A stretch of DNA of 64,000 nt, taken from contig JBBSXJ010000003.1 of assembly GCA_038045825.1 (NCBI GenBank), positions 148 through 64,147 of the forward strand, written 5' to 3'. The notes beneath the pieces were generated by a model, which made no database searches, was not told the DNA's origin, and saw only the letters and a list, made by a program, of their open reading frames with translations. Shown here piece by piece: positions 2,054 to 64,000 of this stretch (position 1 is its first letter; the number at the start of each line of letters is the position of its first letter). The position numbers were made by a program, and so were the translations under genes. The stretch comes from Nanobdellota archaeon. GTDB lineage: Archaea > Nanobdellota > Nanobdellia > Pacearchaeales > GW2011-AR1.

Positions 2054-2394
2054 GTGAGTCGGGCAGCTAACTCCGAAGGTGTCTTTCGATAGACAAGAGT
2101 TTTTATGAATTCTCCTTTGAGGAAGGTCCGGACATCGATAAAAGCGACTGCTTGAAAAGGCAGCTGTCGTGAGGCAAGAGCTCCGCAACAGAAACGAACC
2201 AACCTTTTAATTAAGGGAACGGATGAAACGCACTAATTGTGCATCGCACAATGGTGACTCCAACTCTCACGAGTTGAAGTGGCGCCTTCGCTGATGCAAC
2301 CACCAAAGCCGTGGGCTTAGAATGATGTTAGCACAAAGAGTTTGTCCTGAAAGGGAAACGATCTTTGACAGAATCTGGCCTATGCCTGACTCAC
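2054..2394 (+). ncRNA. rnpB: RNase P RNA
   Basis: P1 GTGAGTC/GACTCAC; P2 GCTAAC/GTTAGC; CR-I GAGGAAGGTCCGGAC (2119-2133) pairs with CR-V ACAGAATCTGGCCTA as P4 with bulged U and compensatory changes; CR-II ACAGAAA and CR-III TGAAACG present. Confidence 0.93.
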
Positions 2395-2454
2395 TTTATT
2401 TTACCATTATAAGATTTCTACTCTAGTTTATAATAACCTGGTCTGTCTAAATAA

Positions 2455-3207
2455 GTGGGTATAATCTTAACTTACGAAGATCTTCTAACTACTTACAAAA
2501 CTCGAACGCATCGAATAAGACACTTAAAAGATTACACTCATCTTTTTCCAATCAATGCAAATGAAACTTTAGCAGGTATTGTTGCAGATTTAATGGGAGA
2601 CGGCAATTTACAAAAAACTCCTGTTTGGAGAATTGATTTTACTTCTAAAGATTTAGAAGAATTAAAAAGATTTGAAACTGAAATGTTAAAAAATTTTAAC
2701 ATTAATGGAAAAATAAGGCCTTGCTCCACTAATAAATATCACACCTATAATATCGGATTTAATTGCGCTCCTGTTGCTCGCATTTTATATCTTGCAGGTG
2801 TTCCTGCTGGACAAAAAGTCTTACAAAAATTTGATTTACCAAACTGGATAAAAGAAGATAAAGACTATTTTAGAAGGTTTTGCCAAAGATTATTTACTTG
2901 TGAAGGAAGCATTAATTATGAGTTAGGGAGAAATCCTAGAGTCGGAATAAATATGTGGAAATGTGAAGAATATTTAAACCAGGGAAGAATTTTCTTTGAA
3001 GATATATCTGATTTAATGAAAAAATATTTTGATATAGACTCTAAGGTTAGTGTTGGAAGTTCAAAGAATTTAAGAAAAGATGGGATAATTACCAGACCAG
3101 TATACATACTAATACCATCTAAATCTACTTTAATATTTCATAAGAAAATTGGTTTTGAAGGGGAAAAACAGAATAGACTTTCTAATATTCTAAATACTAA
3201 AGTTTAA
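2455..3207 (+). CDS. Free-standing two-motif LAGLIDADG endonuclease-like protein
   Basis: Motifs LAGIVADLMGDGNL and RLFTCEGSI; no intein splicing residues at the termini; GTG start. Confidence 0.85.
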   Translation: MGIILTYEDLLTTYKTRTHRIRHLKDYTHLFPINANETLAGIVADLMGDGNLQKTPVWRIDFTSKDLEELKRFETEMLKNFNINGKIRPCSTNKYHTYNIGFNCAPVARILYLAGVPAGQKVLQKFDLPNWIKEDKDYFRRFCQRLFTCEGSINYELGRNPRVGINMWKCEEYLNQGRIFFEDISDLMKKYFDIDSKVSVGSSKNLRKDGIITRPVYILIPSKSTLIFHKKIGFEGEKQNRLSNILNTKV

Positions 3208-3233
3208 AACCGCTCTTTTTTATTGTGTTCTAT

Positions 3234-3305
3234 GGGCGGGTAACTCAGTGGGAGAGTACACGACTGAAGCTCGTGCTGCCGGGGGTTCGATTCCCTCTCC
3301 GCCCA
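3234..3305 (+). tRNA. tRNA-Phe(GAA), intronless, CCA not encoded
   Basis: Cloverleaf: GGGCGGG/TCCGCCC acceptor, ACTC/GAGT D stem, CACGA-CTGAAGC-TCGTG anticodon arm, GGGGG-TTCGATT-CCCTC T arm. Confidence 0.95.
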
Positions 3306-3749
3306 TTAATTAATAACAAAACCTGTTATTTGTGCATTAAGTGGTTTCCCAAAAACATAATCACAAGGCATTGCTGTGCCTTCTGCGTTTTCTATTATTG
3401 GTATAATGGAGAGCTGTTTATCATTTACACTTTCTAAATTAACTTCTTGAGAAATTGATTGTCCTGGATTTAGAACTAAATCTATTTTTTGAATATCTAT
3501 ATTATCTAGATCGTCTTTGATTTGTAAATTAAAACCTTTTATGACTTCGTTTCCAGTATTTGTTGCTTCAATAAAATAAACTCCCCATTCCTGATTTATT
3601 CCTGCTTCAAATGAAACTCTTTCACAGTATGGAGCAGGAGCAAGTTGAGCAATGAATTCATTGCTGGAATTGTATACTATGAATCCAATCGTAACTGTTA
3701 TTGCAATTAATATTACTGTAGCAATTATCGGCGAAACTCCTTTTCTCAC
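3306..3749 (-). CDS. Archaellin/type IV pilin N-terminal domain protein
   Basis: Class III signal peptide MRKG/VSPIIATVILIAITV. Confidence 0.8.
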   Translation of the reverse strand: MRKGVSPIIATVILIAITVTIGFIVYNSSNEFIAQLAPAPYCERVSFEAGINQEWGVYFIEATNTGNEVIKGFNLQIKDDLDNIDIQKIDLVLNPGQSISQEVNLESVNDKQLSIIPIIENAEGTAMPCDYVFGKPLNAQITGFVIN

Positions 3750-19071: not shown

Positions 19072-19189
19072 GTTGTTGTAAAATTACTGCTGGTTTTAAG
19101 CCTTAAGGTTCTAACTGTTTTGAAGTTATCACAAGGGTATTAAATACCCTATTCTAATGTTTTTCATGAATAAAATGAAAGGAGGTATT

Positions 19190-20257
19190 ATGAAAAACAC
19201 AAATATAGTACTAACAGTTTTCCTTATAGCTACACTTTTAGTTTCTGCAATTGCAGGAGCAGTAGAAGTAGGAGATATAATTAGTGCGGATCCTAATGTT
19301 ATAAGTGCTGCATCAGTTGCTGCCTCAATAAGCGCTGTTGATGCCGTAGAAACAGAAATTGAAGTTGAAAATGAAGTTGAATTTAAGACTACAACAAAAA
19401 ATACAGTTTCTAAAGGACAAGGATGGATAGTAACTGAAAGCAAAGGTGCTTTAGCGGAAATCCTCTTTGTAAGCAAGGAAGGAACAACAGCTGATGGAAC
19501 TGCAACTAGTATTTCTAAAGGATGGTTTAGAGCTGGAAATATAAATCTTAAGCTTGAATCAACTGCAAATACTGAAACTACAAAGACTTTCCAAGTAACT
19601 GGAGGAGACGGTTCTGTAAAAGGAACATTGACTCTTACAAAAGGTCAGACTTACCAGACAGGTTTTGCTGTATGGAATGGGGATCTTGATATAATGGTTG
19701 GAGATAAACCGTTTGATGCAAAGGTTACTTTAGCAATTGAAGAGAAGAATAATAGAAAAGATCCTAATAGTGGTCGCGGAGGCTCTGGAAGTTCAACAGC
19801 TTCTGGAACATTAGTTCTTGGAGGCGAAAGCTTTACTCTTGAAGGAAAGACAAGTAGTGCCAAGAAACTCGAATTTAGAGTTATTGGATCAGATGGCGCT
19901 GTTGGAGAGTTAAATCTAGAAAGCAGAGATTCTGTAAATTATGCTGGGAAAATAGAAATTGAAGGAAAAGCCGGAAATGAAATCAAAGGAAAGGCAACTG
20001 CTCAATTGAAACGTGAAGTAAATACTTTATACGGACCTATAAAGATTGAGTTAGATGGTTCCTCTGCTGCAGACTTGGCTTTTATGGATGGAACTATCAA
20101 GATAGCATTAAGTGAAAAAGTTGCATCTGATAGCCCAGGAGAAAAAGACAAAGATGTTAACTCTGACTTAAGAAATGATGAGGATACAAGAGGAAGCAAT
20201 TCTGATTCTTCAGATAGAGGATTCTGGAAAAGATTCTTCAGCTTTTTCGGCAACTAA
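19190..20257 (+). CDS. Secreted beta-rich hypothetical protein
   Basis: GGAGGT SD at 19181-19186; signal peptide MKNTNIVLTVFLIATLLVSAIAGA. Confidence 0.75.
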   Translation: MKNTNIVLTVFLIATLLVSAIAGAVEVGDIISADPNVISAASVAASISAVDAVETEIEVENEVEFKTTTKNTVSKGQGWIVTESKGALAEILFVSKEGTTADGTATSISKGWFRAGNINLKLESTANTETTKTFQVTGGDGSVKGTLTLTKGQTYQTGFAVWNGDLDIMVGDKPFDAKVTLAIEEKNNRKDPNSGRGGSGSSTASGTLVLGGESFTLEGKTSSAKKLEFRVIGSDGAVGELNLESRDSVNYAGKIEIEGKAGNEIKGKATAQLKREVNTLYGPIKIELDGSSAADLAFMDGTIKIALSEKVASDSPGEKDKDVNSDLRNDEDTRGSNSDSSDRGFWKRFFSFFGN

Positions 20258-20469: not shown

Positions 20470-20563
20470 TATTCCAAAAGAGTATCTGTTGTCGTTGAAC
20501 TCGTTCCAGTTGTTGCCGTTAAGGTTCAATCTGTCATCGTTCTCGTTCAAATCAGGAACTCTT
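20470..20563 (-). repeat. DGR template repeat (TR)
   Basis: 94 bp, 9 AAC codons; 71/94 identical to the VR, with 17 of 23 mismatches at TR adenines (hand alignment). Confidence 0.9.
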
Positions 20564-20778
20564 CATTAGCCACTTACTTGAAATTAAACCACCACAATTT
20601 CAGGTTTCGCTTTTTGCGCAATTGCTACTTGCTGTTATTGTTGAATATTATTGGCAAGTGACGTGTAGCCTCGGCAAGTGCTTTTAGCACTCCAAGACAG
20701 AATAATTAGAATTTATTGATTAAAAATGTTTCTTAAAAAAGTTCGCTATTTGTCTAAAAAGTTTTTTTGCGCGCGTTC

Positions 20779-20793: not shown

Positions 20794-21474
20794 CTACTGA
20801 CGTACCCCAAAAGAGTGCCCGTTGACGTCCAAGTCGAACCAGTCGTAGCCGTTGAGGCCCAAACTGCTGACGTACTCGCTCAAATCAGGAACTCTTATTT
20901 GATTGTCTGTTCCCTTGCCTAAAGCCCAAATGTATCCCCTCTTACCTATTTGACCTTGAATTTGAGCTAGTTTCTTTCCTGCTTCTATGTCTCCAGTTAA
21001 AGCAATTGTAAAAGGATTTGCTTCAATTTGCTTTGCATCTTGCCAACCTGTTTCAAAACTATAAGGCAATGCTCTTATTGTTTCATCATTACTGAATCTT
21101 ACGCCATTTTTTGCATTTTTGCTTAATTTTGAGGTTAAACTCTTTTCATCCATTACTATTCTTCCATTTTCAACTTGAGGCATGTCTTGAACAATAACCA
21201 TATTTGGAACGTAAAGAATAGCTGTATTTCCAGATAAGTAGAATTTTCTTGAAGCTTGAACAACTTTATCTGCTCCTGTAATGCCTTGATTAAAATATGA
21301 TTGATGGGCTAAGTCTAGAACTTCTCTAAGGGTTGCTTGTCTAAAACCTTGTCCATAGTCTGCTTGTTTTAATTTATGAAAACTACCTGGACCAACTGGT
21401 GAATCTGCATACACTCTTCCAGCTGTTTCTATAGTTCCACCTGGAGGATTGTGCTTGAAGATTGATTTTTCCAT
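20794..21474 (-). CDS. DGR target (variable) protein, probable CLec-like fold
   Basis: C-terminal RVPDLSEYVSSLGLNGYDWFDLDVNGHSFGV is encoded by the VR. Confidence 0.85.
   Translation of the reverse strand: MEKSIFKHNPPGGTIETAGRVYADSPVGPGSFHKLKQADYGQGFRQATLREVLDLAHQSYFNQGITGADKVVQASRKFYLSGNTAILYVPNMVIVQDMPQVENGRIVMDEKSLTSKLSKNAKNGVRFSNDETIRALPYSFETGWQDAKQIEANPFTIALTGDIEAGKKLAQIQGQIGKRGYIWALGKGTDNQIRVPDLSEYVSSLGLNGYDWFDLDVNGHSFGVRQ
20803..20896 (-). repeat. DGR variable repeat (VR)
   Basis: Gap-free match to TR 20470-20563 at the 3' end of the target gene; locally GC-rich. Confidence 0.9.
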
Positions 21475-63218: not shown

Positions 63219-63292
63219 TGGGGCTGCGCGGATTTGAACCGCGGTCTCGAAGTCCCAAACCTCGGATACTAACCAAGCTATACTACAGCCCC
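63219..63292 (-). tRNA. tRNA-Pro(UGG), intronless, CCA not encoded
   Basis: GGGGCTG/CAGCCCC acceptor, CGAGG-TTTGGGA-CTTCG anticodon arm, CGCGG-TTCAAAT-CCGCG T arm. Confidence 0.95.
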
Positions 63293-63939
63293 ATTCCTGC
63301 TCTTACCGGTTTTATTTCGTTAATAAATCTTGCCACTTCATTTTTTCTATAGAGGCAAACATTTCTTTTATTAGATTTTGCAAAATGATATCCTAAACTT
63401 AAGGCTAATTCTTTAAAATCAAAAAGTAATTTTCTATTAAAATTTGTGAATTTAACATATTTTTGTTTTTCTCTTTTACAAATATATACACATCCATCCG
63501 TATCTATTAGTCCTTTTATGCATCTTTTTGTATATTCTTCATTTTCTTTTACCCATTCTGGAAATGAGATTTGATTGACTATTTTATCCCCTCTTAATAA
63601 TCCTATTTTAATTAATTCTTCAACTAATTCTTTATTATAACAATACAGATATGCTTGATTAGTATCTTTGTAAATCTCCTCTCTAAGATGAATTCCAAAA
63701 ATATCATAAAATAAATCTTTAAGGTAATTAAGATAATCTTTCTCCCTTTTATCACAACATATTCTTATTCGGTTTCTATAAATATTTCCATCTCCTAACA
63801 TTATACCAATCAATTCCGCAATCAAATTTCCTTTTTTATCAAAATCTGGCAAGCTATATTCCTCAGATGCCGCATATCTCCCGAGATTATCTTTGTAATT
63901 TAATTTGATTTCTAATAAGTTAAAATTTTTATTAAACAT
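63283..63939 (-). CDS. Free-standing two-motif LAGLIDADG endonuclease-like protein
   Basis: LIGIMLGDGNI and KGLIDTDGCV; stop codon lies inside tRNA-Pro. Confidence 0.85.
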   Translation of the reverse strand: MFNKNFNLLEIKLNYKDNLGRYAASEEYSLPDFDKKGNLIAELIGIMLGDGNIYRNRIRICCDKREKDYLNYLKDLFYDIFGIHLREEIYKDTNQAYLYCYNKELVEELIKIGLLRGDKIVNQISFPEWVKENEEYTKRCIKGLIDTDGCVYICKREKQKYVKFTNFNRKLLFDFKELALSLGYHFAKSNKRNVCLYRKNEVARFINEIKPVRAGMGL

Positions 63940-64000
63940 TTTTTCTATTTTACCTAAATGATCTTGATTAATCGTTTTATTTTTATTAAGTATATTTTTT

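What the first reader, a model, noticed from the sequence alone, without database searches (positions are those of the whole stretch)
2455..3305. Free-standing LAGLIDADG gene wedged between rnpB and tRNA-Phe
Seen: a two-motif LAGLIDADG ORF with acidic residues at both motif positions and no intron or intein context, ending 26 nt before tRNA-Phe on the same strand. The only other LAGLIDADG in 64 kb has the same arrangement before tRNA-Pro. Inference: a family of free-standing homing endonucleases or domesticated DNA-binding proteins that targets the region 5' of tRNA genes.
Basis: partly seen in the sequence, partly recalled or inferred. Interest (0 to 1): 0.6.

Follow-up and report, generated by a model that had tools for sequence, protein, structure and literature searches.

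The report
Selfish nuclease genes docked on tRNA promoters
Two stand-alone LAGLIDADG DNA-cutting enzyme genes in this tiny DPANN archaeon each sit directly in front of one particular tRNA gene, overlapping its promoter. They belong to a large, apparently undescribed set of families in which each branch is tied to one tRNA and behaves like a mobile selfish gene.

Summary
ORF 2455-3207 (+) is an intact two-motif LAGLIDADG protein. It lies between RNase P RNA (2055-2397) and tRNA-Phe (3234-3305). Its stop codon sits inside the tRNA's TATA box.

The second LAGLIDADG ORF (63283 to beyond 64000, -) reads 10 nt into tRNA-Pro and stops at the tRNA's U8-A9-G10.

The genome's six other LAGLIDADG domains are all inteins. 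Background adjacency to a tRNA is 11 of 611 ORFs.

In 80 metagenomic homologues of the first gene, tRNA-Phe is the neighbour in at least 67 loci. Most of the other 13 lack the flank needed to tell.

A tree of 42 free-standing relatives splits exactly by neighbouring tRNA type (Phe, Pro, Gln, Glu, Gly).

In the genus, the rnpB-tRNA-Phe slot is empty, holds unrelated ORFs, or holds a different LAGLIDADG. Only 2 of 17 genomes carry this gene. Its synonymous divergence is less than half that of its flanks, and dN/dS is 0.08.

Best reading (0.7): active free-standing homing endonucleases, each dedicated to one tRNA gene.

No cleavage has been shown and the target site is unknown.

I found no paper describing this. 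Earlier agents in this scan noted the same phenomenon on other DNA.

The parts
2055..2397 (+). RNase P RNA (rnpB), the upstream border of the slot
   Evidence: cmscan gives 76.5 bits, E 5e-23, full-length match to RNaseP_bact_a, below the gathering score. Orthologues in congeners match RF00373 archaeal RNase P at 87-123 bits. The order rnpB, then slot, then tRNA-Phe is conserved in the genus.
2427..2436 (+). TATA-like box (TTTATAATAA) of the endonuclease gene itself, 28 nt before the GTG start; implies a leaderless mRNA
   Evidence: Sequence read. Homologues carry TTTAAAA starting at -29 from their ATG. Protein genes of this genome in general show the same peak at -30/-29, so this is an ordinary own promoter. 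It is inferred, with no transcript data.
2455..3207 (+). Free-standing two-domain LAGLIDADG endonuclease gene (250 aa), the tRNA-Phe-linked family
   Evidence: Pfam LAGLIDADG_3 at 30.3 bits. D49 and E150 are invariant in 31 homologues. The AlphaFold2 model has pLDDT 93.5 and pTM 0.91. The best Foldseek matches are VMA-intein endonuclease domains, I-WcaI, WhiA, I-Tsp061I, PI-PfuI and I-DmoI. dN/dS against the G001 orthologue is 0.08.
3203..3209 (+). TATA box (TTTAAAA) of tRNA-Phe; the endonuclease stop codon TAA (3205-3207) lies inside it
   Evidence: It lies 24 nt before tRNA position 1. That is the same spacing as the TATA heptamer of 31 of the genome's 41 tRNA genes, whose mode is -32..-29. 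The same TTTAAAACCGCTC motif precedes tRNA-Phe in congeners G007 and G010, which lack the gene.
3234..3305 (+). tRNA-Phe(GAA), intron-less, the constant partner of this endonuclease family
   Evidence: Rfam 62.1 bits; ARAGORN. The alleles next to the gene (G000, G001) differ from four endonuclease-less congeners by G10A plus C25U, a compensatory D-stem pair, and by one variable-loop change.
63283..64000 (-). Second free-standing LAGLIDADG endonuclease gene (tRNA-Pro-linked clade), cut at its 5' end by the window border
   Evidence: Pfam LAGLIDADG_3 at 44.6 bits. Motifs are LIGIMLGDGNI and LIDTDGCV. Orthologues at 54-57 % identity in G098, G126, G239 and G004 all abut tRNA-Pro(UGG). The true start is about 95 nt beyond the window, giving 270 aa.
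63219..63292 (-). tRNA-Pro(UGG); its nt 1-10 encode the last codons and the TAG stop of the endonuclease ORF
   Evidence: Rfam 57.7 bits. Sequence read: the stop TAG is U8-A9-G10. The last ~50 nt of the ORF are nearly identical between G000 and G004, although the proteins are only 56 % identical.

Best explanation
Both genes are free-standing single-chain LAGLIDADG homing endonuclease genes, selfish mobile genes. Each is specialised on one tRNA gene, and it has settled on that gene's promoter-proximal 5' flank.

Shown here:
- The fold and the catalytic residues are intact.
- Each protein clade is tied to one tRNA isoacceptor.
- The ORF ends in the tRNA's TATA box (Phe) or reads through the promoter into tRNA nt 8-16 (Pro, Gln, Glu, Gly).
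- The gene is present or absent among close relatives at the same site.
- Its synonymous divergence is lower than that of its flanks.

Inferred:
- The enzyme cuts endonuclease-less copies of 'its' tRNA locus, in or next to the 5' part of the tRNA gene.
- Double-strand-break repair then copies the endonuclease gene together with the adjacent promoter and tRNA 5' part (co-conversion).
- The carrier allele is immune because its target is altered. Candidate alterations are the insertion itself, base changes such as G10A/C25U in tRNA-Phe here, or, in other lineages, a small intron near the tRNA's 5' end.
- The endonuclease is transcribed from its own leaderless promoter.
- The tRNA keeps a promoter that is now overlapped by the ORF's 3' end. 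This makes the insertion harmless to the host and makes its deletion risky.
For: - Fold and active site: Pfam hits, D49 and E150 invariant, confident model matching I-DmoI, I-Tsp061I and intein endonuclease domains.
- Specific linkage: tRNA-Phe is next to the gene in at least 67 of 80 metagenomic loci, in three different orientations (46 tandem, 18 divergent, 3 convergent). Linkage is therefore kept through rearrangements.
- Clade matches tRNA type: the tree of 42 proteins needs the minimum of 5 label changes, against a shuffled mean of 24.4, and 0 of 200 shuffles are as low.
- Empty and alternative alleles in the genus.
- Rarity: only 2 of 41 relatives searched hold the Phe-type gene.
- Younger than its surroundings: G000 vs G001 nucleotide identity is 89.5 % in the gene against 70-76 % in the flanks and 75 % in rnpB. 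dS is 0.50 against 1.09-1.52 in four flanking genes, and dN/dS is 0.08. G007 has the closer rnpB (88.6 %) yet lacks the gene.
- The gene tree mixes genera and families within clades.
- No intron, intein or integrase context.
- Promoter overlap.
Against: - No cleavage activity and no target site have been shown.
- For tRNA-Pro, an endonuclease-less allele (G014) is 95 % identical to the carrier tRNA. It differs at only one of the first 40 nt. So immunity cannot be explained by the tRNA sequence alone there.
- The G10A/C25U difference could be shared ancestry of G000 and G001 and unrelated to immunity.
- dS values near 1-1.5 are close to saturation, and selection on overlapping signals could lower dS locally.
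- Strong purifying selection is also what a domesticated host protein would show.
- The fold search also returns WhiA, a non-catalytic LAGLIDADG transcription factor.
- MAGs are incomplete (70-91 %), so absences are 'not found', apart from the sequenced empty sites.
Confidence: 0.7

Rival explanations
1. Domesticated LAGLIDADG DNA-binding proteins (WhiA-like) that bind at or near the tRNA promoter they overlap and tune transcription of that tRNA, with no homing any more.
For: - dN/dS is 0.08.
- The family is conserved at 40-65 % identity over more than 100 members of constant length.
- WhiA is among the best structural matches.
- The ORF's 3' end and the tRNA promoter physically overlap.
- Each clade stays with one tRNA.
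Against: - Both catalytic acidic residues are invariant. To my knowledge WhiA has lost them; this was not tested here.
- The gene was found in only 2 of 17 genomes of the genus, and congeners run the same tRNA-Phe promoter without it.
- dS is lower than in the flanks, and the tree crosses genera.
- A different LAGLIDADG lineage occupies the same slot in G002, G004 and G014.
Confidence: 0.15
2. The endonuclease ORF lies in the 5' leader of the pre-tRNA. The tRNA promoter drives one transcript, and RNase P releases the tRNA. The leader would then play the role that an intron or intein plays for other homing endonucleases.
For: - In the Pro/Gln/Glu/Gly family, the ORF overlaps the tRNA by 10-16 nt, with no terminator in between.
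- Only 11 of 30 such loci keep a strict TATA heptamer at the canonical distance inside the ORF.
Against: - In this window, tRNA-Phe keeps a canonical TTTAAAA exactly 24 nt upstream, as the genome's other tRNAs do.
- The family-wide KHLK and KQxxLK codons spell that TATA box.
- The endonuclease has its own TATA at the standard leaderless distance.
- The 18 loci with divergent orientation cannot be leader-encoded.
Confidence: 0.08
3. Remnant of a larger integrative element that used the tRNA gene as its attachment site, or plain inherited synteny with no functional link.
For: tRNA genes are classic integration sites. Sugahara et al. 2012 (PMC3293823) describe a recombinase-bearing element that disrupts an archaeal tRNA gene.
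Against: - The insert is a single gene with no integrase or recombinase.
- It sits at the 5' promoter side.
- There is no duplicated tRNA segment upstream of either gene.
- Linkage persists in three orientations and in unrelated flanking contexts.
- Chance adjacency is 1.8 %.
Confidence: 0.04

Closest known systems
Phage T4 SegB and other free-standing phage homing endonucleases ('intronless homing'; Brok-Volchanskaya et al. 2008, PMC2330249)
   Same: A free-standing endonuclease gene embedded among tRNA genes. SegB's recognition site includes a conserved tRNA motif. It drives preferred inheritance of itself plus neighbouring tRNA DNA into relatives that lack it (abstract read). The presence/absence pattern and the co-conversion logic match.
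   Different: SegB is a GIY-YIG enzyme in a phage and works in co-infections. Here the enzymes are LAGLIDADG, in cellular DPANN archaeal chromosomes. They are fused onto the tRNA promoter, each clade is dedicated to one isoacceptor, and cleavage is untested.
Collaborative or trans homing (free-standing nuclease beside an ORF-less intron: F-CphI/psbA, mobE/I-TevIII; PMC2790892 for mobE)
   Same: In more than 20 related tRNA-Phe loci, the tRNA next to the endonuclease seems to carry a small insert at acceptor position 3/4 or 4/5. In G002, G004 and G014, a tRNA-Phe with two introns sits behind another LAGLIDADG. An intron could be the immunity determinant.
   Different: In this window neither tRNA has an intron. 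The introns are archaeal protein-spliced ones and not group I. I did not verify a bulge-helix-bulge motif. The F-CphI comparison rests on my own knowledge, not on a paper read here.
I-DmoI / I-Tsp061I (archaeal rRNA-intron-encoded single-chain LAGLIDADG endonucleases) and intein endonuclease domains
   Same: The same two-domain single-chain fold and the same acidic pair at the ends of the LAGLIDADG helices (Foldseek E 1e-8 to 3e-11).
   Different: 12-20 % identity. This gene is not inside an intron or intein. It has a 36-residue N-terminal extension. Its own promoter and its position on a tRNA promoter also differ.
WhiA (bacterial LAGLIDADG-derived transcription factor)
   Same: A structural match (8dy9, 3hyi). 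A free-standing LAGLIDADG scaffold that acts at promoters.
   Different: WhiA lacks the catalytic acidic residues and carries a C-terminal HTH domain (my own knowledge). Here D49 and E150 are invariant, and the Pfam WhiA_N score is 12.1 bits against a cut-off of 23.4.

Membership tests
LAGLIDADG homing endonuclease superfamily (single-chain, two-motif type) | Two LAGLIDADG helices, each ending in a conserved acidic residue | tested here: met
   LAGIVADLMGDG (D49) and FTCEG (E150) are invariant in 31 homologues. The second gene has GIMLGDG and LIDTDG.
LAGLIDADG homing endonuclease superfamily (single-chain, two-motif type) | Profile match above the curated threshold | tested here: met
   PF14528 at 30.3 and 44.6 bits against a cut-off of 22.5.
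LAGLIDADG homing endonuclease superfamily (single-chain, two-motif type) | Two alpha-beta-beta-alpha-beta-beta-alpha domains packed through the LAGLIDADG helices | tested here: met
   AlphaFold2 pLDDT 93.5. Foldseek probability 1.00 to I-DmoI, I-Tsp061I, PI-PfuI and I-SceI.
LAGLIDADG homing endonuclease superfamily (single-chain, two-motif type) | Site-specific double-strand cleavage of a long target | not testable with these tools
   Needs purified protein and endonuclease-less alleles as substrate.
Free-standing homing endonuclease genes (seg/mob type, 'intronless homing') | Not inside an intron or intein; own expression signals | tested here: met
   The tRNA is intact and the ORF stands alone. 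Own TATA at -28. The genome's inteins are elsewhere.
Free-standing homing endonuclease genes (seg/mob type, 'intronless homing') | Close relatives carry the same locus without the gene | tested here: met
   The slot is empty in G010 and G006, and other contents fill it in G007 and G008. tRNA-Pro lacks the gene in 11 of 13 congeners.
Free-standing homing endonuclease genes (seg/mob type, 'intronless homing') | Signs of lateral spread with co-conversion of flanking DNA | tested here: inconclusive
   A block of high identity runs from about 2400 to 3305. It includes the tRNA with its G10A/C25U pair, and dS is 0.50 against 1.1-1.5. The tree crosses genera. This is only one pair of carriers in the genus, and dS is near saturation in the flanks.
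Free-standing homing endonuclease genes (seg/mob type, 'intronless homing') | Target site in the endonuclease-less allele, altered in the carrier | not testable with these tools
   The target is unknown. Candidate differences are listed.
Archaeal intron-encoded LAGLIDADG (I-DmoI type) | ORF lies inside a bulge-helix-bulge intron of an rRNA or tRNA gene | tested here: not met
   The ORF lies wholly 5' of a complete tRNA that has 7 of 7 acceptor pairs. No tRNA fragment lies upstream of it.
WhiA-like domesticated LAGLIDADG regulators | Loss of catalytic acidic residues; WhiA_N profile match | tested here: not met
   The acidic residues are invariant. WhiA_N scores 12.1 bits against a cut-off of 23.4.

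The most novel reading that the evidence does not exclude
These endonucleases are the selective force and the vehicle behind odd archaeal tRNA gene structures. On this reading, cutting pressure on the 5' part of a tRNA gene favours alleles broken up by small non-canonical introns. Examples are position 3/4 in many tRNA-Phe genes next to this family, two introns around the anticodon loop behind another LAGLIDADG in G002/G004/G014, and D-arm inserts in Pro, Gln and Glu tRNAs. Nuclease and intron would then spread together, an archaeal counterpart of collaborative homing. That would offer a route to intron-encoded endonucleases, multi-intron tRNA genes and split tRNA genes.
Probability: 0.3. Interest if true: 0.85.

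Novelty: new variant of a known kind. Interest (0 to 1): 0.72.

Why it matters
Free-standing homing endonucleases are known mainly from phages. LAGLIDADG enzymes are known mainly from introns and inteins. This locus shows a third habitat in cellular archaea, the promoter-proximal flank of tRNA genes.

The reading frame is written over the tRNA's TATA box and sometimes over its first 10-16 bases. Separate protein clades are dedicated to separate isoacceptors.

Three consequences follow:
- It yields a ready set of natural, probably very specific nucleases whose targets can be guessed from their neighbours.
- It explains many 'hypothetical proteins' next to tRNA genes in DPANN genomes. 81 of 251 genomes of this order have a relative of the second gene.
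- It makes a long-standing idea testable: that mobile elements shaped intron-bearing and fragmented archaeal tRNA genes.

A PD-(D/E)XK-like ORF elsewhere in the same genome has the same stop-in-tRNA layout. This hints that the niche is used by more than one nuclease fold.

Tried and rejected
- Leader hypothesis (ORF inside the pre-tRNA leader). Set aside for this window because tRNA-Phe keeps a canonical TATA 24 nt upstream.
- Special 'tRNA-type' promoter in front of the endonuclease. The TATA at -29 turned out to be the general leaderless-gene pattern of this genome, so it carries no special meaning.
blastn-short of the tRNA region against the DNA upstream of both genes gave only chance 7-9-mers.
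- Hidden giant intron (exon 1 upstream of the ORF). Rejected, because the window's tRNA-Phe and tRNA-Pro acceptor stems are complete.
- Viral carriers. No relative was found in IMG/VR.
- The genome contigs pattern scan returned only the G001 orthologue. It was too strict to be informative.
- Sequence search of solved structures gave only weak intein hits (E 5e-4). The fold search was needed.
- A strict TATA count inside the second family's ORFs supports an embedded promoter in only 11 of 30 loci. That point stays open for that family.
- The order-wide tRNA-Phe BLAST was too coarse to score intron presence against endonuclease presence. I drew no statistic from it.
- RNA folds of the putative small-intron tRNAs pair the upstream GGG(G) with the 3' acceptor strand, but I could not confirm a bulge-helix-bulge motif.

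Full report
**What is at the site**

- The window holds an RNase P RNA at 2055-2397 (+). It scores 76.5 bits, E 5e-23, below the gathering score of the bacterial class A model. Orthologues in congeners reach the archaeal RNase P threshold.
- A 250-aa ORF follows at 2455-3207 (+).
- tRNA-Phe(GAA) follows at 3234-3305.
- An archaeal pilin-like gene lies on the other strand.
- The ORF matches Pfam LAGLIDADG_3 above threshold. Its motifs are LAGIVADLMGDG and FTCEG.
- In an alignment of 31 homologues, D45, D49, G50, C149 and E150 are invariant.
- An AlphaFold2 model from that alignment is confident, with pLDDT 93.5 and pTM 0.91. Foldseek places it with VMA-intein endonuclease domains, I-WcaI, I-Tsp061I, PI-PfuI, I-DmoI and I-SceI, and also with WhiA.
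- The organism is a DPANN archaeon. The congener G001 is recorded as a 'Nanoarchaeota archaeon' MAG. Named homologues come from Pacearchaeota and Woesearchaeota.

**The second gene**

- ORF 63283-63939 (-) is also LAGLIDADG_3 (44.6 bits). It is only 22 % identical to the first.
- Its TAG stop is nt 8-10 of tRNA-Pro(UGG), which spans 63292-63219.
- Orthologues show that the real start (MKRFLINN..., 270 aa) lies about 95 nt beyond the window's end.

**Is it more than chance?**

- The genome (836 kb, 16 contigs, 41 tRNAs by ARAGORN) has LAGLIDADG domains at eight loci. Six of them are inteins, in SMC, ribonucleotide reductase, MCM, RadA, FttA and RtcB.
- So there are exactly two free-standing genes, and both lie 5' of a tRNA on the same strand.
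- Only 11 of 611 ORFs of 150 aa or more end within -20..+60 nt of a same-strand tRNA.

**The tRNA-Phe-linked family**

- A search of 5.8 billion proteins gave at least 100 homologues of about 250 aa at 39-65 % identity.
- A metagenome scan fetched 80 loci. A tRNA-Phe profile (nhmmer) found tRNA-Phe next to the gene as follows:
  - 46 loci in tandem, with the tRNA downstream on the same strand and a gap of -39 to +213 nt, mostly 0-70;
  - 18 loci divergent, with the tRNA's 5' end facing the gene's start at 80-370 nt;
  - 3 loci convergent.
- Of the 13 loci without a hit, 8 have no downstream DNA and 3 show weak split hits.
- Linkage that survives three orientations and unrelated outer flanks points to a functional tie to tRNA-Phe. 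Inherited gene order alone would not give this.

**The wider family**

- 81 of 251 genomes of the order have a relative of the second gene at E <= 1e-6, with up to seven copies in one genome.
- In about 36 of 40 fetched loci, the ORF ends 10-16 nt inside a same-strand tRNA. The stop is U8-A9-G10 or nt 13-15.
- Anticodon reading gives Pro(UGG) for all five close orthologues, and Gln, Glu or Gly for the others.
- A maximum-likelihood tree of 42 proteins separates exactly by neighbouring tRNA. Six labels need 5 changes, which is the minimum. Shuffled labels average 24.4, and 0 of 200 shuffles are as low.
- One caveat applies. The last few residues of these ORFs are encoded by the tRNA itself, which can add a little to the clustering.
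- Inside clades, genera and families are mixed. For example, G004 of this genus groups with G126 of another genus and not with G000.

**Overlap with the tRNA promoter**

- In this genome, 31 of 41 tRNA genes have a TATA heptamer starting at -32..-29.
- tRNA-Phe has TTTAAAA at 3203-3209, 24 nt before position 1. The endonuclease's TAA stop (3205-3207) lies inside it.
- Across the Phe family, the conserved C-terminal motif KQxxLK is spelled ...AGCTTAAAAGC..., which is the tRNA's TATA box.
- Across the other family, KHLK is spelled AAACATTTAAAAAG, 24 nt before the tRNA. The frame then runs on into the tRNA. A strict TATA heptamer at the right place is present in only 11 of those 30 loci.
- The endonuclease itself has a TATA 28-29 nt before its start. 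That is the general leaderless pattern of this genome.
- So the tRNA in this window most likely keeps its own promoter, and the endonuclease is a separate unit written over it. These are sequence inferences, and no transcript data were available.

**Mobility**

- In the genus, rnpB followed by tRNA-Phe is conserved. The slot between them varies:

| Genomes | Content of the slot |
|---|---|
| G010, G006 | empty (68 and about 115 nt) |
| G000, G001 | this gene |
| G007 | unrelated 195-aa ORF on the other strand |
| G008 | 98-aa ORF |
| G002, G004, G014 | a different 209-aa LAGLIDADG, followed by a tRNA-Phe with two introns around the anticodon loop |

- G000 and G001 are 70-76 % identical in the flanks and in rnpB, but 89.5 % identical in the gene and 98.6 % in the tRNA.
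- dS is 0.50 in the gene against 1.09-1.52 in four flanking genes, and dN/dS is 0.08.
- G007 has the closer rnpB (88.6 %) yet lacks the gene.
- The two carrier tRNA-Phe alleles share G10A plus C25U, a compensatory D-stem pair, and one variable-loop change. These are absent from four endonuclease-less congeners. This may be co-converted immunity, or it may only be shared ancestry.
- tRNA-Pro(UGG) lacks the gene in 11 of 13 congeners.
- One endonuclease-less tRNA-Pro allele (G014) is 95 % identical to the carrier's tRNA. For that clade, the tRNA sequence alone cannot give immunity.

**Related observations outside the window**

- In more than 20 Phe-family loci, tRNA positions 1-3/4 do not pair. 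A GGG(G/A) lies 13-35 nt upstream, and a conserved ...ACC-ATAA precedes the rest of the tRNA.
- Folds pair that upstream GGG with the 3' acceptor strand. I read this as a small non-canonical intron at 3/4 or 4/5, but I did not verify a splicing motif.
- The window's own tRNAs have no intron.

**Comparison with what is known**

- The closest functional analogue is T4 SegB, a GIY-YIG enzyme in a tRNA cluster (PMC2330249). Other close analogues are free-standing phage endonucleases, including those that cooperate with ORF-less introns (PMC2790892).
- The fold is that of I-DmoI-type enzymes, but the intron or intein context is missing.
- Three literature searches found no paper on tRNA-linked free-standing LAGLIDADG genes in archaea.
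- Earlier agents of this scan reported the same phenomenon on other genomes: e1-3182072 (tRNA-Phe), e1-4995245 (the general family), e1-4727760 (initiator tRNA) and e1-4945926 (a tRNA-Pro cassette with duplicated 5' segments).
- I reproduced the tRNA-Phe linkage independently. I did not find the duplicated-segment layout here.

**Verdict**

- The most likely reading (0.7) is active, mobile, free-standing homing endonucleases dedicated to single tRNA genes.
- The main rival (0.15) is a domesticated promoter-binding protein.
- Cleavage, target site and transcript structure remain untested.

Noticed in passing
G000 contig C6 (locus L171:668-1747, minus strand), outside the window: A 360-aa ORF made of repeated HTH-like modules plus a C-terminal Mrr_cat/PD-(D/E)XK-like domain (20.8 bits, cut-off 21). 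It ends 10 nt inside tRNA-Arg(CCU), and its TAG stop is U8-A9-G10. This is the same layout as the LAGLIDADG genes but on a different nuclease fold.
   Followed up: partly
L029, L027, L028 (G002, G004, G014), downstream of rnpB: tRNA-Phe with two inserts flanking the anticodon loop (gene span about 148 nt), preceded by a 209-aa LAGLIDADG of a separate clade. ARAGORN mis-types it as Asn or Thr.
   Followed up: partly
L043-L065 and other metagenomic loci of the tRNA-Phe-linked family: The tRNA-Phe 5' acceptor nt 1-3/4 are displaced 13-35 nt upstream (a putative small intron at 3/4 or 4/5, ending ...ACC-ATAA). Between the endonuclease stop and that point lies a conserved stretch (GGGAGTGTC ... GAGCTCAATGGGGA) that resembles a tRNA acceptor plus D-arm. 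It may be a decayed duplicate of the tRNA's 5' part. Unexplained.
   Followed up: partly
window 20561-20697 (-): Match to Rfam RT-16 RNA (73.9 bits, gathering score 50). No reverse transcriptase is evident nearby: the flanking ORFs 19157-20257 (+) and 20794-21474 (-) have no Pfam match.
   Followed up: partly
G000 contigs C1, C4, C5 (L165-L170), outside the window: Six intein-bearing genes in an 836-kb genome: SMC, ribonucleotide reductase (apparently two inteins), MCM, RadA, FttA/aCPSF1 and the tRNA ligase RtcB.
   Followed up: yes
G063:C1 ~98.0-98.8 kb, G257:C9 ~16.0-16.7 kb, G159:C35 ~7.4-8.1 kb, G235:C26 ~20.3-21.0 kb: Further LAGLIDADG ORFs with 240-260-aa frames lie convergent with tRNA-Phe, on its 3' side. 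This suggests yet another lineage around the same tRNA. It was seen only by comparing the coordinates.
   Followed up: no
L022:1820-2407 (G007) and L025:2068-2364 (G008): The same rnpB-tRNA-Phe slot holds unrelated small ORFs in other congeners: a 195-aa ORF with an HESTH motif on the opposite strand, and a 98-aa ORF. The slot looks like a general hot spot for insertions.
   Followed up: partly
window 3306-3749 (-): A 147-aa protein with an archaeal class III (pilin/archaellin-type) signal sequence (MRKGVSPIIATVILIAITV) and no Pfam match. It is conserved next to tRNA-Phe across the genus.
   Followed up: no
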